DNA from: a virus
Taxonomy: Duplodnaviria > Caudoviricetes
IMG/VR virus record: IMGVR_UViG_3300032272_000007
Span: 10,757-74,756 of that record
Length of the DNA stretch: 64,000 bases
Strand: one strand, 5' to 3'
A model generated the notes under the pieces. It was not told where the DNA came from, searched no databases, and worked only from the letters and a program-made list of their open reading frames with translations. The translations under genes and the position numbers were made by a program. Below are positions 3,524 to 59,434 of the stretch, piece by piece; the first letter of the stretch is position 1; each line of letters opens with the position of its first letter.

Positions 3524-3994
3524 ATGAAACCAGAAACCAAGCATTTGAGCGCCCTCCTTATTAGCACCATGGGTAAAAGCATTAAGCATGTATCTGAAAA
3601 GTATTTGAAGAGGGAGTATGCGGCCTTTCACAGCCGTGTTAAGAAGGGAAAGATTCACGTCCTGGACTACATTAAGCTATCCATCTTAACTGGAAAATCT
3701 CTCGATGAGATCCTAATGCAGGATCCTAGATATGCTGATGACATCAAGAAAATACGTGAGGAGTTTGGAATTCCTGAAACTGATGATGAGGCTGTAGATA
3801 CTGAGCTGACCCCAGAGGCTCAGGATCTCATAAAGGATGTTCTTGGTCTTGGTGAGAAAAAGCCAAATTTATGTGACTCGGATGGCGCTCAAACTGCTGG
3901 AGACAACCTCCCCATCGCCCAAAAAGAGGAGGAAGCCCAAGAGGCAGGGGAAAAGGTGGAGATTAGTGATGACTTTCCTTTTGAGGATGTGTAG
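3524..3994 (+). CDS. Putative HTH-type regulator with acidic C-terminal tail
   Basis: Only sizeable plus-strand gene in the left part of this arm; N-terminal helical pattern (IKLSILTGKSLDEIL) resembles XRE domains. Confidence 0.45.
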   Translation: MKPETKHLSALLISTMGKSIKHVSEKYLKREYAAFHSRVKKGKIHVLDYIKLSILTGKSLDEILMQDPRYADDIKKIREEFGIPETDDEAVDTELTPEAQDLIKDVLGLGEKKPNLCDSDGAQTAGDNLPIAQKEEEAQEAGEKVEISDDFPFEDV

Positions 3995-4211
3995 TTGATA
4001 TTTCTTTATATCTGACTTTTGTCCAACTTCCACACTTATGACAAATAGCTTTGTATACTATTGGTAGAATATCTCCCTCATCGTTAGGATGACATTTATA
4101 GCAAAGTCGTACTGTCATTTTTCTGTTTTTTCTGTTGCGTGGTACACTCCACATCCTTCCCAAACCTCTTCCCACCACCAGTTCTCTGGATCTGGGACGG
4201 TGATCAAACAC
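3963..4211 (-). CDS. Small Zn-ribbon-like hypothetical protein (start uncertain)
   Basis: CYKC and CHKC pairs. Confidence 0.4.
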   Translation of the reverse strand: MFDHRPRSRELVVGRGLGRMWSVPRNRKNRKMTVRLCYKCHPNDEGDILPIVYKAICHKCGSWTKVRYKEISTTHPQKESHH

Positions 4212-4242
4212 ACCTGGTCTTTGACGAATTCAAATGGCTGCT

Positions 4243-4527
4243 TCATTCAAGGGTGAATTTATGTTTCTCAAAAATTGCTTTGGCTCTGTCTGAGTCAGAC
4301 TTGGGGCCACACCTATAATTTCCGTCATGATCATAGAATCCACGCTTCAAGGCCAAAAGATCTCTCTCCTTATGGATTTCTATCCACCCTCCAGCGTATT
4401 CCCCCGGTCTCCGACACCTTTGGTTCGGCTGAGCCTGGCAGTGGGGACATTCTACCTCAAAAGGTGGATCCTGTGGGAACGTGTGTCCGCAGGATGAGCA
4501 GTCAATAGGTTCTCCAATTTTACCCAT
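4243..4527 (-). CDS. Phage zinc-finger protein
   Basis: CSSC, CPHC...C...H motifs. Confidence 0.6.
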   Translation of the reverse strand: MGKIGEPIDCSSCGHTFPQDPPFEVECPHCQAQPNQRCRRPGEYAGGWIEIHKERDLLALKRGFYDHDGNYRCGPKSDSDRAKAIFEKHKFTLE

Positions 4528-47036: not shown

Positions 47037-48509
47037 TTGGCAGGTAATACAGCATCAAATCTAGTATTCAGAGGAGCAGAAGGAACTGGTGCCGCACAGA
47101 TCTTCGGAAGAGAGGGAAATCCACTCAAGGCCTTAGCTCAGGTCAAAGCCAACGAAGCCAACCAGGCAACGCTACTCCAGAAGAGAAAGGAAGCCAGAGA
47201 CAAGAAAATGGCCGATTTAGCGGAATGGGCTCCAGACGAACGATGGGCTCCATTTGACGAGCAGGTTCGAACGATGGCTGAGGACCTTATGGGGTGGGAA
47301 GTGGAACAGATACAGGCTGGAGCAGACACATCCGATGTGGGATTTACCCGTCAAGTAAAATCATTGCAGAATAAGGCTAATTTGGTCGCCTCTAAATCCA
47401 ACCACATGAAAACTGTGTTTGATGACGTAAGAAAAACTTACACCGAGGGTGATAAGAAGGATTATTTCCAGACCAAGCATTATGATGAGTTGCTGAATGA
47501 CGTTTTCATGGATGAAAATGGCAACGGTAATCCGATAGACCAGATTAATCTTGATGACGCACGATCAATATTGGATGATCCAGAGGGATATAATATCACA
47601 GCTATTACCAATGATTTCATTGCCGAGCTTCCAGAGAAGTCTAAAGAATTTTATAGTGGTCTCGCCACCAAGCTAGGCCAGGGTTTTGAGCAATCTAAGT
47701 TCATGACTAAAGTACTTCAATTTGCTCCAGACGGAAGTTTGGAGTTTGATGATAACAACCAACCAGTGCTAAGACTGGCTCCAGAGGTTATTCGAGAAGC
47801 AATGAATAATGACCTTCTGGGTCGATGGGTCGACTATGAAACAGGTAGGGAGGTTGAGAAACGACTACAGACAAGAGGATTGTTAGATGCTGCTGGTGTT
47901 CCTTCAACAGACATTGATCCAGTAGAGGAGCAGGAAATTCAAAAAGAAATTTTGAGGGGACTACTCATCCAGCGGGATCCAACTAGCATGAGCAAGAAGC
48001 CAACGGGTATGCTCAAGCATGATACAGCTGGCGGGAGAGGGTTTTCGGTACAAGAACCATTGGTTGATGTCAGGTATCGAACACTTAGGAAAGCTATCTA
48101 CAGCCTTGATGAGTCCGCTCTAAAGGAAGCAGCACAAGCGGCCGGAGGTATTCAAATAGAGTTTCTTGGGGGGGAGCCGGGACCAGGAGGAAAACTGGTA
48201 GACGAAGCATCTCCTGATAGAATACGTGTAACCATCGACCAGAAGGGGTTCGAGGATCAGAAGAGGGGACAAGAAGGAGAGAAAATCGGAGTTAAGCCAA
48301 AAGTAAAAGACATTTACATTGGTGACAATAAGTCAAGGGAAGCGGCAATATTTGAACTCAATCAATTGATGGATGAGGCTCAGGGGGCAGCTAAACTCAG
48401 AATAGGTAATGATAACATCCGCCTATTTCATGAGAGATGGCTAAAAAAGAATTCCAAAAATCTAGGATTTGGAGGAGATAATGGGAAAGTAACATTTGGG
48501 TTTAAGTAA
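47037..48509 (+). CDS. Internal virion/ejection protein
   Basis: Helical 490-aa ORF between the ejection gene and the giant protein. Confidence 0.55.
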   Translation: MAGNTASNLVFRGAEGTGAAQIFGREGNPLKALAQVKANEANQATLLQKRKEARDKKMADLAEWAPDERWAPFDEQVRTMAEDLMGWEVEQIQAGADTSDVGFTRQVKSLQNKANLVASKSNHMKTVFDDVRKTYTEGDKKDYFQTKHYDELLNDVFMDENGNGNPIDQINLDDARSILDDPEGYNITAITNDFIAELPEKSKEFYSGLATKLGQGFEQSKFMTKVLQFAPDGSLEFDDNNQPVLRLAPEVIREAMNNDLLGRWVDYETGREVEKRLQTRGLLDAAGVPSTDIDPVEEQEIQKEILRGLLIQRDPTSMSKKPTGMLKHDTAGGRGFSVQEPLVDVRYRTLRKAIYSLDESALKEAAQAAGGIQIEFLGGEPGPGGKLVDEASPDRIRVTIDQKGFEDQKRGQEGEKIGVKPKVKDIYIGDNKSREAAIFELNQLMDEAQGAAKLRIGNDNIRLFHERWLKKNSKNLGFGGDNGKVTFGFK

Positions 48510-51500
48510 TGGGAAAACAGAAGGAAAAAAAGCCAAATAATGTAATGAAGGAACTATTCTCCTATCTACAGGAGTCTGGATCTTCTGATGACCTGCCTGA
48601 TAACATTGATGTTTTTCAGGCTCAAATGGATGCCGATACCGCAATTAGTAGCAATATCTATGATTTTCTCAACAAGTCTGCCAAGGTTAATGACCTGCCT
48701 GAAACACATATTGCATTTAGGGAAGGTCTCGGGCTTACTGTAAAAAAAAAAGACGATTCACCACTGGATTCACCAGATGGTGCACCAATATCTACCGAGG
48801 ATTCAGAAATTATTTCAGAAGAACCCATCGATCAACCTAGTGAAGAACCAGGAAGTGAAATCAAAATAGACGGTATTGAGGATTTAGGCATTGATGCCCC
48901 AGAAGGTGAGCCACCTTCTCCAGTAGTGAATCCAGAAATGGCGCAGCAGGAGAAGGACTTCCAGCCACAAATCCAAAGGTTGATTACTCAACCAGAGCTT
49001 GATGAGCAGCAAATACAACAAAGAGCTAGTGACCCTATTTTAAGCGGCATAGATAATATTGTCGGCAGTGTTCAGGACAAACTATTCCCGGTATGGGAAG
49101 AAGCGGCTCAGGCGGCTCAGGCGGAGGCTGTGAAGCTAATAGACATCCAATTCGGTGAGTGGGTCAAAAAGAATCCAAAAGCCAATGAGAAGGAGCAACA
49201 AATCAAGTATCAGGAGCTTGCTGCTAAATTTCAAGAGGGGCCTTTCAAAAATCGATTGAAGGGAATTGAAAATCAGTTCAATAAAACTATCACAAAGGAG
49301 ATCGAAGAGACCATTGAAGGATTCATTGGTATCGAGAAGTGGAAGCAGATGGAAGATGGCCCAAATAGGCTGCAGACTTACCTTAGTCAATTTACCAGAA
49401 CATTCTACGAGATACCTGGTACTCTGTCCAAGGGTTATGGCATTCTGGTCGGCGATGAAAATATTCAAGAGTTTGGTACCGCATGGCAGAACGTTGTAGA
49501 TGAATTCCACCCATCTAATCCTAAATATGCTGAGGAAATTGCCGCACAACTTACCCATGGCCTTGGTCAGGTAACGTCATTAATATTTATGGGAGGGGTA
49601 ACGGGGATGGGCAAGACCGGCACAAACCTACTTCTCAAGAAAGGAGCTAAGGATGTTGCTAATATGTCTTCCAAGCAGATCCTTTACGAGTCAGGAAAGA
49701 ATATGATGAAAACCTTGTCATCAGCTCCAGCCGTACTTGGTGCTATGCAGATGGCCGTTCCTGAGTTTGAACAAGCAATTCAGAAAGGAGCTACCGATGA
49801 TCAGGCGTTTGAGGTGTTCGTTAAAAACGCAATTGTAGGAAGTGTTTTGGAGCAGGCTCCAATTCTTCAATTCTTTAAGCGGCTAAATCAGGCCACAGCT
49901 GGCGGACTAAAAACATGGATGCTGGGCAAGGGTAAAGCAGCCTTCAAGGGCGGACTCGAGGAGGGGTTCACGGAATATCTTCAAGGAGTTTATGCCAACT
50001 GGACCGCTAAGGAGGTGTACGATAACTCTGTTAAAATACTCGATGGTGTAGCTGGAGAGGGAGCTCTTGGATTTGGAGTTGGTTTCATTATTAATGCCAT
50101 TGGTGCCAACATCAAGATCGCCAGGCAACAGAATAAGGGAGACGAGTGGATTGATAAAGCGGAAGCTCATCTGGAGCAAAAGAAAACGGAGTTTGACCCA
50201 GAAGCCACCATCACAAAGGATCCAGCGGTAGAGAAACCAAACGTGATTGATCTTACCGAAAGTAATGCTAAATCCATTCAAGAGAAGATTACAAAAGGGG
50301 ATGAACTAAGCCCCCACGAGCAAAAGGAGAGAGAGCAATTTGAGACCGAAGGGAAAGAGTTTACAGAACCAAAACCACCAAAGGAGGTAGAGGAAGTGGA
50401 TAAAGTGGTAGAAGATCCGTTGGAATCGGAAGAAAAACAGGAAAAACCGGAAGCATCAGACTCAGAGATTGATCAGGAAATACTTGGATACAAAGGCGGG
50501 TTTATCAAGGATCAGAAAAATATTTTAAATACCCGTATTGTCGATATAAAAATCGATGGAGACAAAGTAATACTTAATCAAGGTCAGTCCTCATTTGAGA
50601 AATCGATGACCAAACAGGAGTTCTTGAACATGGTCGATAAAAAAGACCCAAAATTTGAGATCACTATTGCAAGAAAAAGTGAGATAGAGCAACCCCCCAA
50701 GGCGGAGAAACCAAAGGTCAAAAGCGTAAGGAAGGGGCCTAGAAAATTCCCTATACCAAAACGACATCAGCCGGCAGTGGACGCTACCCCGGACACACTG
50801 CGTCAATCAATAATGCAGTCGATTATTGGGGGTGTTCGCTTTGAAACACAACGATTCAAGAAGGAAACAGGTCGTAAGATTGATGGTAGCGTATTGGGAA
50901 TGGTCGCCTCCAAGGAAAAGGGAGGTATGGACATGGATCAATTCATTCTGAATTTAAAGGATGAGTGGGATACTCACGATGAAGGTGAAATCCGAAATGA
51001 AATACTTGATGTGATCAACTCCTATGGATCCAAGGAAGACATGTTCAATTCTCTGATGGATGAAATAGGAGTAGAGGGAGAAGCCATAGCGGATCCAGAT
51101 GAAAGAGCTCTTCGGAAACAAGAGGCAGAAATGGCTAACCAAGCCCTATCTCAGTTATCAGAAGAGGAACGGCAATTGCTAGAAAATAGCCCTGAAATTC
51201 TACCAGATAGTGTTTTTTCTCTGTCAGATGAGGAGGCACAGCAACTTTTAGATGATAATGAAGCATACGAAGCGTACTTAAAAAATTTAGATAATGGAAC
51301 AGAAACCGCAAGTGAAACTAGCCCTGAAAGTGATCAGGGACAAGTTGAAAAAACAAGACAAGAAGAAACCACCTCCAAAGAAGGAGTAAGAAAGTGGATA
51401 AAGGACATCCCCAGACGTGGAAAAACGGAAATATCACTCAATCCAGCTGAACAAAAAGCCCTAAAGGAAATTAATGGCACCACCACTAAAAGCAAACTCT

Positions 51501-54500
51501 ATTTAAGAGGAGAAAAAGGACTTTCAAACAAGTATGGCGATGACACTATTCAAATGCTCAGGGATTATGAGTTAATCTTATTTGGAGCAGATGGTAATAA
51601 ATTCTCAGCAGTAAGTCAGGTCGGTAGAGAAATAGCGGATGACATCACCCAAGAAGTAAAGCGGGAAGATAAAGGAGATAGATTTTTGGTTCCAGAGGAA
51701 CTTGATACGAAAAAATTCAGAAAAACCCTTAACAAAATACATGATCAGTGGGAGAATGATCCAACTGGTGAGCTAATTAATGATGATGATGCGAGAAAGT
51801 TCATCACCGACACCGCTAAGGAAAAGGGCTTTATAACGGGTGTTGAGAGGGATGGATACGGGAATGAGAGAATTACCTTCACCAAAAATGAAGAACAATC
51901 CCCCAAAAAGGATAAACTAGCTCAGAAAGAAGAGAAAATCAAAGATGAGTTAGCGGATCTATGGAGCCAGTTTGGAAAAGCAGGAGCAAATACCGCAAAT
52001 ACGGGGATCACTCCAGAGCAATTTGAGCTAGCGGCCAAGATAATAGCTAAATCAGCAGAATTAGGATTTGTCAAATTTGAACAAATCATTGAGTTCGTCC
52101 GCGATAATATCGGAGAGAACGTACTTAAAGAGAATTTTGATGCATTCAAAGCCGCATACGTGGCGAATAAAGTTACTGAGAATCCAGAAAATGAGGATCT
52201 CAATTCCATTGCATCACAGAACCCAGAAAATTTTATTAAACCAAAATCAAATGAACTCCCTACCACAAACAATCTGGAACCAGATAGCACAGATGGAGGA
52301 TCTATCGACCCAGTGGGCAAAGAAGATGTTTCCGATCGACGAGGATCAGATCGACGTGGAACTAGAGAAGGATCACGACAGGATGAAAAAGACGGGAATG
52401 AGCGACAAAGCGATACTGTCATTTCAGACGATAGCGATACTACACCTGGAACACAAAGCAATCAGAAACTTTCTGAAACAGAGCGAGGAGAACGAAGCAC
52501 TCCAAATGATCGCACTACCGGAGACGGTAGAGGAAGTAATCCAAATAGCAGGCAAAGAATATTGGATGGAGGAGAAGGACGAGCAGAATCTACGAAGCCT
52601 GATAACAAAACACTCACTAAAAAAGAGCGCCTAAAAGCTCAGAAAGCAGCTGAATCTATTGAAGTAGTATTCAATGATCCTAACAATGTCCGAGAAACCC
52701 TACCATTGCTTTTCCCAGAGCAACAGGACGATGTAATCAAGATAGAAAGGAGATTCTCAGAGGACCCAACCTCAACAGATCCCAAAAAGGGAATATTATT
52801 TACTAACGGAACTGGTACGGGCAAAACCTTCACGGGTTTAGGAGCAATCAAGAGATTCCAAAAAAGAGGACTCAACAACATACTGATTGTAACAAAAGCA
52901 AAAGTCACCAGCGTTTGGCAAAACGAAGGGAAACTTTTTGATATTGACATCAATAAGTTAGAGGGAATTAAGGACAGGGGCAAAGGGGTTAGGGTGACTT
53001 CATTTGAGAACTTCCGAGCGAATGAGAGCATAAAACACGAGAAATTTGACCTTGTTATTTATGATGAAAGTCATAAGCTCATGAACAACAAGCGTGGGGA
53101 GGGAATGGCGACAGCCCAATCTCACTATACCATTTCCAATAAGGACACCTCTTATGCAAAGAAGCGCTTAACAGACGTTCATCCGCTATGGATGAAGAAA
53201 AGAGACATTGAGGCTAAAATAGAAGCTGAGTCAGCCTCAAGATCATCATCCGACATGATGCAAAGTCTGTACATGGATTCCCTCCACCGAGAGCAGGCGC
53301 TTGAGGAGAAGCGGAATAAGGTTATGGACGAAATCAGTCTTGTAGAACCCGGGATAAACGAACAGGCAGAAGAGGCTGCAGCTCACACAAAAACGATATT
53401 CCTATCAGCTACTCCATTTAAGTTTCATTTCAATTTGAGGTACGCTAACGGCTATCTTTTTGATTGGGGCAATGAAACCACCAATAAGAACAATAGTCGA
53501 GGACAAGCCAGGCGATTAGATGCTGAAAGTCGATTCTTCTTAGAAAACTTTAGTGCTGCCTACGACTTCCAGAATCATTTGCAGTCACGGTCAGACGCAA
53601 ACCCAGAGGCCATCGCCATGCAGGAGATGAAGTTTGCTGACAGACTAATGGAAAATGGGGCAATGTCTGGTAGAAAAATAACCAGTGATTTCGATTATAG
53701 CAGGGACTTCCCTATCGTATCTGGATTTAACGCAGACTCCTTCAACCAAGCGTACAATGATATTTACAATTTTGATACTAAAGAATTTGATGAACTAAGG
53801 GATGGAGCCAAAGAGGTGTTTGGGAGGTATGAAAGCGCACTAAAACTGTATGAGGCTCTCAGAACCGCTCAATCTATACCAAGAATCAAGGAACACCTAA
53901 AGTTAGGTAGAAAGGTGATTGTCTTCCACAGACGGCACAAGGAGGGCTCACAACCCCCATTTGAAGCAATACTCAGGCATACGGAGGGACAGGGCAGAGA
54001 TTACATAGATCTTGGTTTGGACCCTGAGAAAGGGCAAAAAATGCTTAATCAGGCGGATTTATTCCGAGAGAGGTACGGAGATCTACTAAAATATGAGCAA
54101 GAACTAAACTACCGATCTACGGTAAACCAAATAACAGAGGCTTTTGGAGAAGATAAGGTACGATTTGTCAACGGTCTAGTTAAAGACAAGGACGGAGCGG
54201 TTATCGATTTCAATAATGATGACAGTGAGGCAAAAATAATAGTACTTCATGAGGATGCTGGAGCGGAAGGAATATCCTTACATGACACCACGGGGAATAG
54301 CCCAAGGGTTATTATGTCGATGTCACTACCCAATTCAACCACAACAACCCTCCAAATAGAAGGAAGATCGTACAGAATTGGAAATATGTCCGATGCGATC
54401 TACGAGTACCCTATTTTAGGTCTTGATGCCGAGCTTGCCCACTTTGGCCAGACAATGAATAAGGCTCTTAGCACCACAGAGAACCTATCATTAGGATCCA

Positions 54501-57500
54501 AAGGTAGAGATCTACTCAGCTCCTTCGCCAGAGGGATCATTGTGAACAGCTCTACAGATGCTCCGAGTGCCAACCAAGGAAAGGGAGGCAAAGACTTAGA
54601 TAGGAAAGAAAACGACACCAAAACAGCTTTCGAGAATGCCAAGCTGGAGTACGCCACTAATCTGAAAGGTAGAAAACTAGATTTAGGAGAAGATTTCTTT
54701 TCTACACCAGAGCCGTTAGGACAAAAAATGGTGGAATGGTTGGGTTTAAAAGCAAGCGAGAGCATGTTGGAGCCAGAAGGAGGATGGGGAGCTATCGCAA
54801 TGTGGGCACCTAAGCACTCAACGCTTAAAGTGATAGAGAAGTCCTCAAAACTTGTTTCCATGCTACAAACAAGGGTAAATCACGGAAGCAGAGATATTGA
54901 GCAGATGGCATTCGAAGACTACAATAAAATCAACAAGTTCCATGGAGTAGCTATGAATCCTCCATTTGGTCACGCTGGTAGTTTGGGTTGGGAGCACACC
55001 ATTAAAGGACTTGGACACCTTAAAATGGGAGGACGACTTGTGTCAATACTACCAAGTTCATCCGCCCTTGTTAAAGAAGGAGGAAAAATAGAGCAGTGGC
55101 AAGAATCGAAAGACGGGAGAGAGTATGCTATCCGAGGCAAGGTTAAGCTGCCATCAGTTACCTTTGATCAGGCTGGGACTAAAGTGAATTCATTTGCTCT
55201 CATTATTGATAAAGTCAACTGGAGAGATGAATCTATCAGAAACCTATCCTACCAGGAGTTTGATTTAACCCATATCAAGACAGTTGATGAGTTTTTTGAT
55301 GCCATAGAAGATATGAACTTCGCTGAAAGGTATCAGGATGAAACGGCTCAGGCTCAAGAAGAGCCCACCACACGCAAGGCGATTGATAATTTAATTGATC
55401 AGTCTAGGAAAAAAAGGCTCCAAACCAGCGAGAACACCGATGGTTCAGCTACTCTTGGGGAGTCGACACATGAAAAAACTGGAGCCAAGCAATTTTTAGT
55501 TAAGCTAGGAACCAGAACAGAACCAGATGTATTCCAAGCCTTCAAAAAGAAATCCAAAGAACTAGGGAAGGGGTTCTGGTATCGAGGCAAGCAGGCATTC
55601 ATCTTCCACACCCTGGAGGATGCTGAACAGTTTAGAAACTGGGTAAACAACAATGAGGCCAAGACAGATAGTCATCAGTTCCAGATTTCCAGAGGAGATG
55701 GCAGGACATTTAAGCAAATGGACATCGCCGCAAGGAAGATAGGCAAGTCAGAGCTAGATGGATTAGTGAGGAGGCTGAAACAAGCCCTACCGAGCTTTAA
55801 AGTCCACACATCAAAGCGATCATTCGAGAATGCTTACCAGAGGTACCAAGAGGGTAACGGGGATGCGTTATTTCAGAAATCTAGCCCCAATCAAATGGGA
55901 ATGTTTGCTAGTGACCCTAATATGACGGAAGGGTTACCCGAAACTAAAAGAATAGAGATTCTCAACAAGCTAAAAGAAGCGACCAAGCGGATCAACCATT
56001 TAAGAAAACTACCACCATCAGCCAAAAGCAACCTCGTGAAAGAGGAGGTGGAATGGCTCCAGAAGGACATCATTCGTCTAAATAACAAGCTAGATGACAC
56101 ACTCAGAGCGGATAAGGCTAGAGAGGGGGGAGATCAGCAGTCACTATTCCAGCTAGGTCCAGACAGGACACCAGCCGCCTTTGTCTATAACGATGAAATT
56201 TATATTAATCCTGAGCTAGTCCGAGCAGATACTCCAATACATGAATTTGCTCATATCTGGTTAAGGCTGGCGAAATTCAAACACCAGCCATTATACAAAG
56301 CAGGGCTCAGTCTCGTTAAAAACTCAATCTATCACGAGCAGGTGAAGAATGATCCATATTACTCTACCCTACCTATTGTGGATCAGTTGGAGGAGGCACT
56401 AGCAATTGCCATTGGTGAAAAGGGAGCTCTGATGGAAAACAAGAACGCTTTTTCTAAATGGATTAGCCGCTTATGGACATCGATGAAAGTGTTTTTTGGA
56501 GCAAAAACTAGACTGGACATATTCAATATGTCTCTTGATCAATTTGTAAAAGCATCTGCCAAGGATCTACTTTCGGGGATGGAGATTTCACAGCTGTCTT
56601 CATTGCGAATTCCAGAGACGGCCACAATGGGATTAAGAACCTTCAAAACGTCAAAAGACGCATGGAAGGACTATCAGGATAGATTGGAGGTGAACAAACT
56701 AATTTCAAGCGCTCCGAGGTCATGGATAAAAGCAAGAGAGTCGGGTATTAGAAATATCTGGAATCATTTCATGCAAGGAATCCAAGACAACACCAGGCAG
56801 GTGGCGGTTGTCCAGGAGGAGATATATAATAATTTCGTTAAAAATCTGGATAAGGAGATAGATGCGAAAAACATTCCTGATGATCAGAAAAAGGCACTTA
56901 AAAAATCAGTACTATCCAGCAGAGCGAAGATAAAAGATGTGGCCTTAAAGGGTAAAGACGTTCATTCAGCACTCGATGTTAAGACTGGCAGGATCCAAAA
57001 CGCTCAGGAATTAATGAGAAGAAAGTTTTTTGGAGACCATTCGATAGGGACAGGAATGAGCATAGTTGATTGGTTGACCAAAAAAACCCACAAAGGAGCG
57101 GAAATATTAGATGCGGATAGTGAGTCGGGAATACTGAAAAAAGATGGATTAACGCTATTGGATGTGGGTTTCTATGCTTATGTAAAACACGCTAAAAACT
57201 TCAATGAGAGAGTTCATGAAATATCTGTAAAAAGAGAAGATGAACTGGAGATTACAGATGGTTCGGGGATGACCGACGAGCAGGCCGACTTACTCATGGA
57301 TAAAATGGAGGAAACCGGCAAGATAGAGGCTCTGGAGAGAGCATGGAAGGTGATGAGGGATGAGCTTGTCAAAAAACCTCTTGACCTAAAGCTAGAAAAG
57401 GGGATCATTACTCCTGAGCAGTATGAAACCCTCACAAATCCAAAGATAGCTGGAGATTTCGCAAACACCTATGTCCCACTAAATGTGTCTCCAAAAGCAT

Positions 57501-59434
57501 TCACCTCCAGTTCGTTTGGTAAAAAGGTGCTGGGTAAGGGGATCAATAAAATCAAGGGTACCAGCAAATACAAGTATCAGGATAGGGTAAACCCAGCGCT
57601 ACAACTGATGGCCAACTACGACAAGGCCATGTATGATGTTGAAACCAATGACGCTCTATTGAAACTCTATAAATTGGTTCAAGACAACCCAGAACCGACA
57701 TATTGGGAGATCATTAAGCCAAGATATAAGGCATCCAAAAACATTGCGACAGGAGAGATTGAGCATGATATGGTTGTCTCACCAGAAGTAATAGAGAATT
57801 CAGTGAAAGTATTAGTTGAGGGCAAGCCAATCTATGTACACCTCAAAGATCCTCAGCTAAAAAATGTATTCAAAATCGCTGGAGGTAATTCAACTAACGA
57901 AGCAGGAAGAATGGTGGTCAGTTTCTTAATGGGTACCAATGCTTATTTCAGGTTTGTCTTCACCATGGGAAACATTGATTTTGCAGTTCCAAACTTTTTC
58001 CGTGACACCGGAGACGCTGTTGTCAATCTAAGTGAGCACGAGGTAAAGAACCTAAAAAGGAAAGTACTCAAGAGCATACCGCAGGCAATGAAGGGTATCC
58101 GTGATTTTGAAAAGGGAAACTATGATACGGAGTGGGCAAGATGGTACGGAGACATGAAAAAAAACGGGGGAGAGATCGCCTGGCTAAACTTCGTGAACGC
58201 TGAAAAACAATACAAAACCCTAGAAAGCGAGGTCAAGAGGTATCAGTCAGACCCTAGCTTGGCTCATAAGGCAGCTAACTACACAACAGCCATCCCGAGG
58301 ATGCTTTTAAGAACTGTGCTACTGACAAATAAGATGATCGAGATGAACCTACGTCTAAGCACGTACAAAACCCTCGTGCAGGCAGGCATCTCAAAAGAAC
58401 AAGCTGCAATTGCAGCTAAGAATGTTACCGTGAATTTCAACAAGCACGGTACATGGGGACCAGCAATGTCCGCTATCTGGTTATTCTCCGGAGCGCAGGT
58501 ACAGGGAGTTTCAAGACACCTCACAGCACTCTATCGATCTAAAGCAGCCAGAGCAACCGTATTAGGCTTTACGGCGGCTAACGTAGCTCTTAATGGGTTC
58601 AACGACTTAATGGATGATGATGATGAAATGGATAATCTGTTAACGGATTACGACAGGGAGAACAATCTGATTTTCTACAACCCATTCAACCCTACGGTTC
58701 CAATCACAATACCTATTTCATACAATTTGAAGATTTGGAAGGCTCTCGGAGATAATTCCTACCGTGTTTCCACAGGAAAGACCACTGCTAATGAGGCTAC
58801 AAAAAACATAGTCAACTCCATAGGGGAGACTTTAATTCCTTTCTGGCAAAACAAGGGGGTTCCAACCGTAGCGCAAATACCTGTTGAGATTGCTACAAAC
58901 ATCAAGTTGTATAATGGACAGCCAGTAGGTCCTACCAAGTGGGATCCAAGCAAGAAGGATAGCGAATTGTTCTATAAGAGCGCCAGACTATCCAGTGTGG
59001 GAGCTGCTAGTTTCCTTAGTGACCTTTTAGAGGGCAATGACGACATCTTGGAAATCAGTCCTAATACTATCGACCATGTATTGAACTGGGGACTGGGAGG
59101 TATGAAGTCCATCCTAAGTACTGGTGATGAGCTTTACAAAGTGATTAATGAGCCTGGAGACGGAAATACAGACTGGAATAAAATAGCCGTACTCAGGAGG
59201 TTTGTCGAGGACATGGAGGATCAGGAGTGGAGACATGGAGTTAAATACTGGGAAATCTACAACAAAGGGATGGTAGATAAGATTTCAGATGAAGAGAAGA
59301 AAAGAATAAATGAACTAGGTGATTACATGACCAAAAACTCACTAATAGACCGTAAAAAACACTTTTCTAACCTCAAGAAACTGTTTAAAGTGCAGTCTGA
59401 GGACTTCAATAATGGGAAGAATATTTACCAATAA
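48509..59434 (+). CDS. Giant polyvalent (DarB-like) virion protein: SF2 helicase, N6-adenine MTase, zincin-like peptidase, LPD38-like C-terminus
   Basis: GTGTGKT and YDESH helicase motifs; FFSTPEPL, LEPEGGWG, MNPPF MTase motifs; PIHEFAH (HExxH); NVTVNFNKHG...N...G.PV C-terminal pattern. Confidence 0.85.
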   Translation: MGKQKEKKPNNVMKELFSYLQESGSSDDLPDNIDVFQAQMDADTAISSNIYDFLNKSAKVNDLPETHIAFREGLGLTVKKKDDSPLDSPDGAPISTEDSEIISEEPIDQPSEEPGSEIKIDGIEDLGIDAPEGEPPSPVVNPEMAQQEKDFQPQIQRLITQPELDEQQIQQRASDPILSGIDNIVGSVQDKLFPVWEEAAQAAQAEAVKLIDIQFGEWVKKNPKANEKEQQIKYQELAAKFQEGPFKNRLKGIENQFNKTITKEIEETIEGFIGIEKWKQMEDGPNRLQTYLSQFTRTFYEIPGTLSKGYGILVGDENIQEFGTAWQNVVDEFHPSNPKYAEEIAAQLTHGLGQVTSLIFMGGVTGMGKTGTNLLLKKGAKDVANMSSKQILYESGKNMMKTLSSAPAVLGAMQMAVPEFEQAIQKGATDDQAFEVFVKNAIVGSVLEQAPILQFFKRLNQATAGGLKTWMLGKGKAAFKGGLEEGFTEYLQGVYANWTAKEVYDNSVKILDGVAGEGALGFGVGFIINAIGANIKIARQQNKGDEWIDKAEAHLEQKKTEFDPEATITKDPAVEKPNVIDLTESNAKSIQEKITKGDELSPHEQKEREQFETEGKEFTEPKPPKEVEEVDKVVEDPLESEEKQEKPEASDSEIDQEILGYKGGFIKDQKNILNTRIVDIKIDGDKVILNQGQSSFEKSMTKQEFLNMVDKKDPKFEITIARKSEIEQPPKAEKPKVKSVRKGPRKFPIPKRHQPAVDATPDTLRQSIMQSIIGGVRFETQRFKKETGRKIDGSVLGMVASKEKGGMDMDQFILNLKDEWDTHDEGEIRNEILDVINSYGSKEDMFNSLMDEIGVEGEAIADPDERALRKQEAEMANQALSQLSEEERQLLENSPEILPDSVFSLSDEEAQQLLDDNEAYEAYLKNLDNGTETASETSPESDQGQVEKTRQEETTSKEGVRKWIKDIPRRGKTEISLNPAEQKALKEINGTTTKSKLYLRGEKGLSNKYGDDTIQMLRDYELILFGADGNKFSAVSQVGREIADDITQEVKREDKGDRFLVPEELDTKKFRKTLNKIHDQWENDPTGELINDDDARKFITDTAKEKGFITGVERDGYGNERITFTKNEEQSPKKDKLAQKEEKIKDELADLWSQFGKAGANTANTGITPEQFELAAKIIAKSAELGFVKFEQIIEFVRDNIGENVLKENFDAFKAAYVANKVTENPENEDLNSIASQNPENFIKPKSNELPTTNNLEPDSTDGGSIDPVGKEDVSDRRGSDRRGTREGSRQDEKDGNERQSDTVISDDSDTTPGTQSNQKLSETERGERSTPNDRTTGDGRGSNPNSRQRILDGGEGRAESTKPDNKTLTKKERLKAQKAAESIEVVFNDPNNVRETLPLLFPEQQDDVIKIERRFSEDPTSTDPKKGILFTNGTGTGKTFTGLGAIKRFQKRGLNNILIVTKAKVTSVWQNEGKLFDIDINKLEGIKDRGKGVRVTSFENFRANESIKHEKFDLVIYDESHKLMNNKRGEGMATAQSHYTISNKDTSYAKKRLTDVHPLWMKKRDIEAKIEAESASRSSSDMMQSLYMDSLHREQALEEKRNKVMDEISLVEPGINEQAEEAAAHTKTIFLSATPFKFHFNLRYANGYLFDWGNETTNKNNSRGQARRLDAESRFFLENFSAAYDFQNHLQSRSDANPEAIAMQEMKFADRLMENGAMSGRKITSDFDYSRDFPIVSGFNADSFNQAYNDIYNFDTKEFDELRDGAKEVFGRYESALKLYEALRTAQSIPRIKEHLKLGRKVIVFHRRHKEGSQPPFEAILRHTEGQGRDYIDLGLDPEKGQKMLNQADLFRERYGDLLKYEQELNYRSTVNQITEAFGEDKVRFVNGLVKDKDGAVIDFNNDDSEAKIIVLHEDAGAEGISLHDTTGNSPRVIMSMSLPNSTTTTLQIEGRSYRIGNMSDAIYEYPILGLDAELAHFGQTMNKALSTTENLSLGSKGRDLLSSFARGIIVNSSTDAPSANQGKGGKDLDRKENDTKTAFENAKLEYATNLKGRKLDLGEDFFSTPEPLGQKMVEWLGLKASESMLEPEGGWGAIAMWAPKHSTLKVIEKSSKLVSMLQTRVNHGSRDIEQMAFEDYNKINKFHGVAMNPPFGHAGSLGWEHTIKGLGHLKMGGRLVSILPSSSALVKEGGKIEQWQESKDGREYAIRGKVKLPSVTFDQAGTKVNSFALIIDKVNWRDESIRNLSYQEFDLTHIKTVDEFFDAIEDMNFAERYQDETAQAQEEPTTRKAIDNLIDQSRKKRLQTSENTDGSATLGESTHEKTGAKQFLVKLGTRTEPDVFQAFKKKSKELGKGFWYRGKQAFIFHTLEDAEQFRNWVNNNEAKTDSHQFQISRGDGRTFKQMDIAARKIGKSELDGLVRRLKQALPSFKVHTSKRSFENAYQRYQEGNGDALFQKSSPNQMGMFASDPNMTEGLPETKRIEILNKLKEATKRINHLRKLPPSAKSNLVKEEVEWLQKDIIRLNNKLDDTLRADKAREGGDQQSLFQLGPDRTPAAFVYNDEIYINPELVRADTPIHEFAHIWLRLAKFKHQPLYKAGLSLVKNSIYHEQVKNDPYYSTLPIVDQLEEALAIAIGEKGALMENKNAFSKWISRLWTSMKVFFGAKTRLDIFNMSLDQFVKASAKDLLSGMEISQLSSLRIPETATMGLRTFKTSKDAWKDYQDRLEVNKLISSAPRSWIKARESGIRNIWNHFMQGIQDNTRQVAVVQEEIYNNFVKNLDKEIDAKNIPDDQKKALKKSVLSSRAKIKDVALKGKDVHSALDVKTGRIQNAQELMRRKFFGDHSIGTGMSIVDWLTKKTHKGAEILDADSESGILKKDGLTLLDVGFYAYVKHAKNFNERVHEISVKREDELEITDGSGMTDEQADLLMDKMEETGKIEALERAWKVMRDELVKKPLDLKLEKGIITPEQYETLTNPKIAGDFANTYVPLNVSPKAFTSSSFGKKVLGKGINKIKGTSKYKYQDRVNPALQLMANYDKAMYDVETNDALLKLYKLVQDNPEPTYWEIIKPRYKASKNIATGEIEHDMVVSPEVIENSVKVLVEGKPIYVHLKDPQLKNVFKIAGGNSTNEAGRMVVSFLMGTNAYFRFVFTMGNIDFAVPNFFRDTGDAVVNLSEHEVKNLKRKVLKSIPQAMKGIRDFEKGNYDTEWARWYGDMKKNGGEIAWLNFVNAEKQYKTLESEVKRYQSDPSLAHKAANYTTAIPRMLLRTVLLTNKMIEMNLRLSTYKTLVQAGISKEQAAIAAKNVTVNFNKHGTWGPAMSAIWLFSGAQVQGVSRHLTALYRSKAARATVLGFTAANVALNGFNDLMDDDDEMDNLLTDYDRENNLIFYNPFNPTVPITIPISYNLKIWKALGDNSYRVSTGKTTANEATKNIVNSIGETLIPFWQNKGVPTVAQIPVEIATNIKLYNGQPVGPTKWDPSKKDSELFYKSARLSSVGAASFLSDLLEGNDDILEISPNTIDHVLNWGLGGMKSILSTGDELYKVINEPGDGNTDWNKIAVLRRFVEDMEDQEWRHGVKYWEIYNKGMVDKISDEEKKRINELGDYMTKNSLIDRKKHFSNLKKLFKVQSEDFNNGKNIYQ
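51294..51389 (+). CDS. Candidate nested small basic ORF (+1 frame within the giant gene)
   Basis: MEQKPQVKLALKVIRDKLKKQDKKKPPPKKE after A-rich TTAAAAAATTTAGATA. Confidence 0.3.
   Translation: MEQKPQVKLALKVIRDKLKKQDKKKPPPKKE
52251..52634 (+). CDS. Candidate nested 127-aa helical protein (+1 frame within the giant gene)
   Basis: Natural globular composition; A-rich upstream region; host frame here is a low-complexity linker. Confidence 0.5.
   Translation: MNSLPQTIWNQIAQMEDLSTQWAKKMFPIDEDQIDVELEKDHDRMKKTGMSDKAILSFQTIAILHLEHKAIRNFLKQSEENEALQMIALPETVEEVIQIAGKEYWMEEKDEQNLRSLITKHSLKKSA

What the first reader, a model, noticed from the sequence alone, without database searches (positions are those of the whole stretch)
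51294..52634. Overprinted genes nested in the +1 frame of the giant protein's disordered linkers
Seen: where the main frame becomes a low-complexity G/R/D/S linker, the +1 frame opens with an ATG after an A-rich start context. 52251-52634 encodes a natural-looking 127-aa amphipathic helical protein (MNSLPQTIWNQIAQMEDLSTQWAKKMF...; frame open from 52068), and 51294-51389 a 31-aa basic peptide. Both are in the same frame, and the longer one stops just before the helicase domain. Inference: dual-coding linkers hide small partner proteins such as a chaperone, an inhibitor of the helicase-MTase, or a translational coupler. This would be missed by standard annotation and could explain the odd linker composition of polyvalent proteins.
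Basis: partly seen in the sequence, partly recalled or inferred. Interest (0 to 1): 0.75.

Follow-up and report, generated by a model that had tools for sequence, protein, structure and literature searches.

The report
Hidden gene inside giant phage gene
A real, conserved 127-codon gene for a small folded helical protein is written one base out of frame inside the floppy linker of this phage's 3,641-codon DarB-like gene, just before its helicase part; it is unannotated in six cultured phages that carry it, and its function is still unknown.

Summary
The longer ORF (52251-52634, +1 frame of the giant gene 48509-59434) is real. The same ~125-aa ORF sits in the same frame and place, 11-35 codons before the helicase module, in 22 of 24 related loci (GC 0.42-0.69). 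These include six cultured phages (Serratia Parlo, Pseudomonas Skulduggery, Klebsiella ZX1, Ruegeria 45A6, two Vibrio phages); in the three records inspected it is unannotated.

- **Start signals:** the ATG is conserved, and a Shine-Dalgarno core precedes it in 19/24 loci.
- **Selection:** it acts on the nested frame (dNN/dNS 0.43). The host frame has no amino-acid constraint (dNN/dSN 1.10) but is kept open: 0 of 20,000 recodings were stop-free.
- **Structure:** the nested frame folds with pLDDT 93 (seven helices, no known fold or family). The host frame over the same DNA is disordered (pLDDT about 27).
- **Distribution:** a profile finds 501 protein clusters, all unnamed.

Function is inferred, not shown. 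The gene co-occurs with this helicase subfamily in 12/12 helicase-based retrievals, and a complex prediction gives only weak support.

The 31-aa ORF (51294-51389) and the antisense ORF look like chance.

This scan has reported similar hidden genes in giant DarB-like genes on other DNA. I found no paper describing them.

The parts
52251..52634 (+). Nested gene X: 127 codons plus stop, in the +1 frame of the giant gene; encodes a seven-helix, mildly acidic protein (pI 5.1)
   Evidence: Translation. Homologous ORFs in the same frame and place in 22 of 24 loci. Purifying selection on this frame. AF2 pLDDT 93, pTM 0.85. 501 clusters of homologues.
52226..52250 (+). Start context of X: A-rich, no Shine-Dalgarno, like the other genes of this phage
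   Evidence: A position weight matrix built from 37 gene starts in the window gives 7.4 bits. That is above 95% of real starts (leave-one-out) and in the top 0.3% of 363 ATGs. In higher-GC relatives a GGAG/GAGG/AGGA core lies at -18..-4 in 19/24 loci, against 13.8% at random positions.
48509..59434 (+). Host gene: 3,641-aa DarB-like polyvalent protein (N-terminal modules, linker, SF2 helicase, then NPPF and HExxH motifs)
   Evidence: Single open frame. Pfam ResIII at aa 1402-1528, E 1.4e-8. Cultured-phage homologues are annotated 'DarB-like antirestriction' or 'PLxRFG protein'.
52241..52609 (+). Host-frame linker (about aa 1245-1367 of the giant protein) that shares its DNA with X: a disordered spacer kept open but not constrained in sequence
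   Evidence: AF2 of window 51920-52906 gives pLDDT 25-36 and no secondary structure for residues 108-230, with flanks at 85-91. dNN/dSN = 1.10. None of 20,000 synonymous recodings of X leaves this frame stop-free; mean 8.9 stops.
52640..54499 (+). Helicase module of the giant protein, directly downstream of X's stop; the constant neighbour of X
   Evidence: Alignment A4 with invariant LP.L..Q..DV, GTGTGKT and DE motifs. The helicase N-lobe query finds exactly the 8 phage records that X finds. Complex prediction with X gives weak support only.
51294..51389 (+). 31-aa basic +1-frame ORF from the finding: probably a chance ORF
   Evidence: One of eight ATG ORFs of at least 31 aa in the +1 frame; the open run is only 32 codons. 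No homologue aligns here in any frame.
51922..52461 (-). 179-aa antisense ORF overlapping X: a chance by-product
   Evidence: Listed. No Pfam match. No antisense phase is consistently stop-free across the 24 loci.

Best explanation
52251-52634 is a genuine protein-coding gene, here called X. It lies wholly inside the giant DarB-like polyvalent gene, on the same strand, in the +1 frame. X is translated by internal initiation at its own ATG and gives a free ~125-aa, seven-helix, mildly acidic globular protein of a widespread but unnamed family. In the shared DNA, X is the frame under amino-acid selection. The giant protein reads the same bases only as an open, disordered spacer joining its N-terminal modules to the helicase-MTase part. 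All of this is shown at sequence level, about 0.95.

Inferred, about 0.4-0.5: X works with the helicase module encoded directly downstream, as a separately made accessory subunit (assembly or packaging helper, or regulator). In role it would resemble the small Ulx protein that acts with DarB in phage P1.

Inferred, about 0.7: X is the older gene and the linker frame was laid over it.
For: **Conservation.** Giant-gene homologues found with the helicase region (L001, L003-L005) and 19 further loci found with X itself carry a 120-141-aa ORF. In 22 of 24 loci it lies in the +1 frame of a long open host frame. GC ranges from 0.42 to 0.69.

**Own start.** The ATG (once GTG) is at the aligned position. 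An SD core lies at -18..-4 in 19/24 loci against 13.8% background. An in-frame stop lies 0-9 codons upstream of the start in 13/24 loci, directly adjacent in L008 and L028. The window's start context is in the top 0.3% of ATGs.

**Selection.**
- Nested-frame identity exceeds host-frame identity in 105/105 pairs (37.7% against 23.9%).
- Per-site rates over 12 close pairs: NS 0.468, SN 0.181, NN 0.199. This gives dNN/dNS 0.43 for X and dNN/dSN 1.10 for the host frame.
- The most variable codon position is host position 3 in both flanks and flips to host position 1 (= X position 3) in the overlap in 8/8 pairs.
- The host frame is nevertheless kept open: 0/20,000 recodings were stop-free.

**Fold.** X gives pLDDT 93 and pTM 0.85. 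The host frame over the same DNA gives pLDDT about 27.

**Family.** 501 clusters at E <= 1e-3, most 120-130 aa and starting at residue 1. A gene caller preferred X to the host frame in L022.

**Link to the helicase.** 12/12 helicase-based retrievals carry X (against 54). X-domain genes also sit 67 nt upstream of an hsdM-hsdS-darT-macro-hsdR operon and next to SNF2/PLD helicase genes. The complex prediction of X with the helicase module gives weak support: score 0.55 against best control 0.00, runs agreeing in at least 87% of contacts, partner pLDDT at least 81. That mark was reached by 58 of 80 solved complexes and 2 of 110 mismatched pairs. A score of 0.60 or under was seen in only 7 of those 80 and in both passing mismatches.
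Against: There is no direct evidence of translation: no peptides, ribosome footprints or mapped start.

Function rests on gene context and one weak prediction, which the tool itself says is more often wrong than right unless the guess was already likely.

X-family genes also occur with no helicase nearby. Examples are small integrase islands (L033, L036), an island with an ArdC-like gene and stand-alone copies (L019, L025). X may therefore act on its own.

There is no similarity to P1 Ulx (hhalign probability 0.2%), so that analogy is positional only.

The order of origin (X first, linker second) was not tested with a tree.
Confidence: 0.8

Rival explanations
1. X is a real embedded gene but an independent effector, such as an anti-defence or regulatory protein. 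It would be one more 'module' of the polyvalent arsenal that happens to be expressed separately, and it would not bind or serve the helicase-MTase.
For: X-domain proteins occur without any DarB-like helicase. One has two copies plus DUF6794 in an integrase/excisionase island (L033). Another is in a Bradyrhizobium island with an integrase (L036). Another is in an island with ArdC-N/MPTase-PolyVal. Others head a type I R-M/DarTG operon or stand alone (L019, L025). The complex prediction is only weak.
Against: In phages X is never found apart from this helicase subfamily, and it always sits 11-35 codons before it (12/12 and 8/8). Several of the other contexts also involve SF2 helicase/N6-methylase machinery.
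Confidence: 0.3
2. X is not made on its own. It would be the C-terminal end of a frameshift product: ribosomes translating the N-terminal part of the giant gene slip into the +1 frame and terminate at 52634.
For: In the window the +1 frame is open for 62 codons upstream of the ATG. In one clade (P0109, P0130, P0143; L034) the upstream domain is in frame with X and the helicase frame starts inside it.
Against: In 13/24 loci an in-frame stop lies 0-9 codons before the conserved start, directly adjacent in L008 and L028. That leaves no room for entry from upstream. A conserved ATG plus an SD core in 19/24 loci points to initiation. Conservation begins at the Met, not before it.
Confidence: 0.04
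3. The ORF is a compositional accident. A T-poor linker with few Leu/Ile/Val/Met codons cannot produce +1-frame stops, so the frame is open but not translated into anything useful.
For: The region has the highest AT skew of the gene (0.50) and fewer L/I/V/M codons (12.6% against 21%). +1 stops need NTA/NTG codons. An antisense ORF is open here too.
Against: Given the host protein, P(run >= 189) is 0.0007. The composition is itself explained by X, since a stand-alone copy yields the same text in its -1 frame. The protein-level conservation, the position-3 substitution pattern, the SD and ATG, the confident fold and the 501 homologous clusters cannot arise from composition.
Confidence: 0.01

Closest known systems
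Rz1 embedded in Rz of phage lambda (spanin genes); also phiX174 B-in-A and E-in-D (from general knowledge, not tested here)
   Same: A complete gene with its own start lies wholly inside a longer gene, on the same strand and in the +1 frame, in a tailed-phage late gene. In Rz/Rz1 the two products form a complex, which is what is suspected here.
   Different: The sequence, fold and function are unrelated. Here the host is a 3,641-aa multi-enzyme virion protein, and the overlap coincides with a disordered spacer that carries no amino-acid constraint. The embedded frame is the conserved, folded one, and it also exists as an ordinary non-overlapping gene elsewhere.
Ulx of phage P1, the small accessory protein of the DarB anti-restriction system (PMC12810830; gene next to darB)
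   Same: A small protein (146 aa against 127 aa) is encoded right beside the helicase-methylase anti-restriction gene. In P1 it acts in the same protection pathway as DarB and is packaged with it.
   Different: There is no detectable sequence relation (hhalign probability 0.2%), and the X profile finds nothing in P1. ulx is a separate downstream gene, not embedded. Whether X is packaged or needed for the giant protein is unknown.
Polyvalent proteins of phages and conjugative elements (Iyer et al. 2017, PMC5512222) and DarB-like giant virion proteins of Bcep22-like phages (PMC9144972)
   Same: The host gene is of this class. X-domain proteins turn up in the same kinds of mobile elements, next to ArdC-like and restriction-related genes.
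   Different: That paper has no mention of overlap or frameshift, and its one use of 'reading frame' refers to separate neighbouring ORFs (term search). X matches no Pfam, PHROG, NCBIfam or PADLOC model. Bcep22's giant gene holds a different +1-frame ORF unrelated to X.
Viral overprinting in general, where one frame of an overlap is usually disordered (review PMC8227390)
   Same: Two frames of one DNA stretch, with one product ordered and one disordered.
   Different: In the textbook case the new, embedded protein is the disordered one. Here the embedded protein is ordered and widely distributed, and the disordered product is a stretch of the host protein. This suggests the host frame was extended over a pre-existing gene.

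Membership tests
Embedded same-strand out-of-frame phage genes (Rz1-in-Rz type) | ORF wholly contained in a longer ORF on the same strand in another frame | tested here: met
   52251-52634 lies in the +1 frame of 48509-59434. The same layout holds in 22 of 24 loci.
Embedded same-strand out-of-frame phage genes (Rz1-in-Rz type) | Own translation start signals | tested here: met
   Conserved ATG; SD core in 19/24 loci against 13.8% background; stop directly before the start in L008 and L028. The window's start context is in the top 0.3% of ATGs. This is sequence-level evidence only.
Embedded same-strand out-of-frame phage genes (Rz1-in-Rz type) | Both frames maintained by selection | tested here: met
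   X: dNN/dNS 0.43 and the position-3 substitution pattern. Host frame: openness only, 0/20,000 recodings stop-free and dNN/dSN 1.10.
Embedded same-strand out-of-frame phage genes (Rz1-in-Rz type) | Both proteins are actually produced | not testable with these tools
   Needs ribosome profiling or proteomics.
TnpV (PF14198), the family named for nested genes in earlier notes of this scan | Match to the Pfam TnpV model | tested here: not met
   No TnpV hit in 103 X-family members at E <= 0.001. No hit in the window's genome or four carrier phage genomes at E <= 10.
P1 Ulx-like anti-restriction accessory protein | Sequence relation to P1 Ulx | tested here: not met
   hhalign of the X profile against Ulx gives probability 0.2%.
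P1 Ulx-like anti-restriction accessory protein | Required for, and packaged with, the DarB-like protein | not testable with these tools
   Only co-occurrence (12/12) and a weak complex prediction (0.55 against control 0.00) are available.
Programmed-frameshift C-terminal extension | Alternative frame reachable only from the upstream frame, with no independent start | tested here: not met
   In-frame stops lie 0-9 codons upstream of the conserved ATG in 13/24 loci, and an SD is present.
Polyvalent / DarB-like giant virion protein (host gene) | Several effector domains in one polypeptide, including an SF2 helicase with an adenine methylase | tested here: inconclusive
   The helicase is confirmed (ResIII E 1.4e-8; alignment A4). 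The methylase (NPPF) and HExxH motifs were seen only by eye. Homologues are annotated DarB-like.

The most novel reading that the evidence does not exclude
The floppy linkers of giant injected 'polyvalent' proteins are standard hiding places for separately expressed partner genes. X (here) and an unrelated +1-frame gene in Bcep22-like phages would be two independent cases. The embedded protein would be the non-injected or stoichiometric partner (chaperone, packaging adaptor or safety catch) of the helicase-methylase encoded just downstream. The linker itself would have arisen when the helicase gene was extended across a pre-existing small gene until it fused with the upstream gene.
Probability: 0.3. 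Interest if true: 0.85.

Novelty: new variant of a known kind. Interest (0 to 1): 0.7.

Why it matters
Gene finders forbid genes inside genes, so this protein family is invisible in phage annotation. It is unannotated in the three cultured-phage records I inspected, and all named members of its clusters are called 'hypothetical'.

It also changes how the giant anti-restriction proteins should be read. The 'linker' before the helicase is not a designed spacer. It is the shadow of another gene, and that gene dictates its odd composition.

The locus is a clean natural example of a folded protein sharing DNA with a disordered one, with measurable selection on each frame.

If X proves to be the helper or regulator of the DarB-like helicase-methylase, it would fill a gap noted for these phages: no accessory Dar proteins have been found in them (PMC9144972). 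The question is directly testable in cultured phages of laboratory hosts.

Tried and rejected
- **Word-based search with X:** no hits. The full HMM search was needed.
- **Family libraries:** Pfam, PHROGs, NCBIfam and PADLOC scans of X and its longer relatives found no family.
- **Solved structures:** the PDB sequence profile search gave nothing below E 0.02.
- **Fold searches:** Foldseek against PDB and BFVD gave no hit with E <= 0.001 (best 1.5-2.1). VIA-align against 48,161 chains gave a best Z of 4.4, below the level expected for unrelated helical proteins. I conclude only that no relative was recognised, not that the fold is new.
- **ESM Atlas:** no usable hit.
- **blastn of the region against phages:** no match, so there are no close relatives for a within-species synonymous-site analysis of the window itself.
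- **Sequencing runs:** one DNA holder (sediment metagenome, probably the source sample) and no RNA holder listed.
- **P0109 contig look-up:** not on record.
- **DNA-mimic idea:** X is only mildly acidic (median pI 5.06, net charge -4). That is weaker than classic mimics (from my own knowledge), so I did not pursue it.
- **X profile and TnpV model against P1 and Bcep22:** nothing found. The tool warns that an empty answer there proves little.
- **Antisense ORF 51922-52461:** not conserved.
Full report
**What is in the sequence.** The window is part of a 74.8-kb, 93%-complete viral contig. A single ORF, 48509-59434, encodes a 3,641-aa protein with an SF2 helicase (Pfam ResIII, aa 1402-1528, E 1.4e-8). 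Cultured-phage relatives are annotated 'DarB-like antirestriction' or 'PLxRFG protein'.

In its +1 frame there is an open run of 189 codons, 52065-52631. The second item, 51294-51389, encodes 31 aa.

**Is the long ORF more than chance?** The obvious null is composition. +1-frame stops need NTA/NTG codons (Leu, Ile, Val, Met). The linker is poor in these (12.6% against 21%) and has the strongest AT skew of the gene.
- Even so, with the host protein fixed and synonymous codons shuffled, the longest +1 run averages 91 codons. It reaches 189 in only 0.07% of trials.
- The ATG context is A-rich without a Shine-Dalgarno sequence, like the other genes of this phage. It scores 7.4 bits on a matrix built from 37 gene starts in the window. 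That is higher than 95% of real starts and in the top 0.3% of 363 ATGs in 43.2-60 kb.

**Homologues.** Searching with the main-frame protein around the linker found four loci at about 30% identity (L001, L003/L004, L005). In each, the longest or near-longest +1 run lies at the same place. Its translation is plainly homologous to the window's ORF (M..IWNxIA..W.KKMFP ... PLLLE..AIS.Y ... ALPE), with the Met at the same position.
- A search with an alignment of these ORFs found 12 further distinct viral contigs and 6 MAG contigs.
- tblastn found six cultured phages and one Comamonas plasmid-like record: Serratia phage Parlo, Pseudomonas phage Skulduggery, Klebsiella phage vB_KpnP_ZX1, Ruegeria phage 45A6, and Vibrio phages D274 and 1.232.O.
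- In 22 of 24 distinct loci the 120-141-aa ORF lies in the +1 frame of a long open host frame. GC ranges from 0.42 to 0.69.
- In the three cultured-phage records I inspected, only the giant CDS is annotated.

**Start signals.** The start is ATG (GTG once) at the aligned position.
- A GGAG/GAGG/AGGA core lies at -18..-4 in 19/24 loci, against 13.8% at random positions. Among the exceptions are the two low-GC loci with A-rich contexts, including the window.
- An in-frame stop lies 0-9 codons upstream of the start in 13/24 loci. In L008 and L028 it is directly adjacent.
- This argues for internal initiation and against entry by frameshifting.
- The ORF always ends 11-35 host codons before the helicase motif P.L...QQ.DV.

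**Which frame is selected.**
- Nested-frame identity exceeds host-frame identity in all 105 pairs (37.7% against 23.9%; BLOSUM62 1.68 against 0.63 per column).
- I classed substitutions in 12 close pairs by their effect in each frame. Changes that alter the host protein but not X occur at 0.468 per site. Changes that alter X but not the host occur at 0.181, and changes that alter both at 0.199. This gives dNN/dNS = 0.43 for X (purifying selection) and dNN/dSN = 1.10 for the host frame (no amino-acid constraint).
- In 8/8 close pairs the most variable codon position is host position 3 in both flanks. It flips to host position 1, which is X position 3, inside the overlap.
- The host frame is nevertheless held open. 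Recoding X synonymously with the phage's codon usage gives a mean of 8.9 host-frame stops, and none of 20,000 trials was stop-free.
- Both frames are therefore maintained: X for its sequence, the host frame for continuity.

**Structure.** With a 103-sequence alignment, AlphaFold2 folds X into a compact seven-helix domain (pLDDT 93, pTM 0.85). The host-frame translation of the same DNA, modelled with its flanks, has pLDDT 25-36 and no secondary structure exactly across the overlap. The flanks reach 85-91.

A stand-alone copy of X (L019) gives the same G/D/E/S-rich text in its -1 frame, there interrupted by stops. The 'odd linker composition' is therefore a by-product of X.

**The family.** A profile of four sequences finds 501 clusters (at 50% identity) with E <= 1e-3, and 349 with E <= 1e-10. 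Most are 120-130 aa and start at residue 1. Where sources give a name it is 'hypothetical protein'. No Pfam, PHROG, NCBIfam or PADLOC model matches. No solved or predicted viral structure is recognisably similar. Members are mildly acidic (median pI 5.06).

Not all copies are embedded.
- L019/L020 and L025 are stand-alone genes.
- P0102 has two copies plus DUF6794 in an integrase island.
- P0130 is in a Bradyrhizobium island.
- P0146 is near an ArdC-like gene.
- P0111 is next to SNF2/PLD helicase genes.
- P0036 lies 67 nt upstream of hsdM-hsdS-darT-macro-hsdR.
- In one clade (P0109, P0130, P0143; L034) the domain that precedes the linker is in frame with X, and the helicase frame begins inside it.

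**What it probably does.** This part is inference. In phages the tie to the helicase is strict.
- All four helicase-based metagenome hits carry X.
- The helicase N-lobe query at E <= 1e-10 returns exactly the eight phage records that X returns.
- The upstream domain varies between loci, but the helicase does not.
- A complex prediction of X with the 620-aa helicase module gave weak support: score 0.55 (runs 0.53, 0.55, 0.65) against a best control of 0.00. The runs agreed in at least 87% of contacts, and partner pLDDT was at least 81. That mark was reached by 58 of 80 solved complexes and 2 of 110 mismatched pairs. A score of 0.60 or under was seen in only 7 of those 80 and in both passing mismatches, so the tool rates such a pass as weak.

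In phage P1 the DarB helicase-methylase works with small accessory proteins, including Ulx, whose gene adjoins darB (PMC12810830). For Bcep22-like phages, PMC9144972 notes that no such accessory homologues have been identified. X shows no sequence relation to Ulx, so the parallel is one of position and size only.

My reading is that X is a separately expressed accessory of the helicase-MTase module (about 0.4-0.5). The main rival is an independent effector that merely travels with it (about 0.3).

X is folded, widely distributed and also exists unembedded, while the linker frame is unconstrained. I therefore think X is the older gene and the host frame was extended over it (about 0.7, not tested with a tree).

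**The other items.** The 31-aa ORF is one of eight ATG ORFs of at least 31 aa in the +1 frame, five of them longer. Its open run is 32 codons against a mean stop spacing of 16.7. Its start context is fairly good (5.4 bits), but A-richness and lack of stops both follow from the same T-poor composition. No homologue covers that stretch, so it has no support. The 179-aa antisense ORF is not conserved.

**Known or new.** Genes embedded out of frame in phage genes are a known kind (Rz1 in Rz, phiX174; from general knowledge). I found no paper describing a gene inside DarB-like or polyvalent genes. In the polyvalent-protein paper a term search found no 'overlap' or 'frameshift', and its single use of 'reading frame' refers to separate neighbouring ORFs.

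Earlier notes of this scan report similar hidden genes in giant DarB-like genes on other DNA, some called TnpV-like. I tested that lead. X is not TnpV-like. Bcep22 gp75 does hold a different +1-frame, SD-led 107-aa ORF that is unrelated to X and has only a sub-threshold TnpV hit. That hints at a recurrent theme with more than one gene family, but I did not test conservation of the Bcep22 ORF.

Noticed in passing
L005 about 3700-4500 (Ga0209727_1000293): The helicase Walker A motif of this homologous giant protein (GTGTGK|...) is interrupted by an intein-like insertion carrying a LAGLIDADG-type motif (..YILGVLLGDGC..).
   Followed up: no
L039 8338-8661 (Burkholderia phage Bcep22, NC_005262, inside gp75 DarB-like gene): A different +1-frame nested ORF of 107 aa with a strong GAAGGAGG Shine-Dalgarno sequence. 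It has a sub-threshold TnpV hit (E 0.045) and is unrelated to X (hhalign probability 0.5%). Its conservation was not tested.
   Followed up: partly
L037 8529-16423 (GCA_964625505.1 contig): A 362-aa protein with an N-terminal X domain lies 67 nt upstream of a type I restriction operon (hsdM, hsdS, hsdR) that has a DarT-macrodomain pair inserted between hsdS and hsdR.
   Followed up: partly
L034 1-908 (Logan SRR28468966 contig): A variant layout: the domain that normally precedes the linker is in frame with X as one 203-aa ORF. The linker-plus-helicase frame opens only about 25 codons before X's Met. This could be a frame change in that lineage or an assembly error. Two other cluster representatives, P0109 and P0130, show the same fusion.
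   Followed up: partly
L025 1-1200 (Desulfamplus MAG JADFZJ010000049): The stand-alone X gene (414-815) is flanked by several copies of a short repeated element, seen as the recurring ..PMRGYE../..PHEGL.. in translations. It could be a repeat array or a miniature mobile element.
   Followed up: no
L022 1-1444 (JGI 3300078278): On this contig the gene caller split the open giant frame into three genes and called X (105-479) in preference to the host frame. Many of the 501 database entries probably arose in this way.
   Followed up: yes
L026 605-16045 (Verrucomicrobiae MAG, 442-kb contig): A 5,147-codon open host frame carrying X inside a bacterial chromosome-sized contig, presumably a prophage or integrative element.
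   Followed up: no
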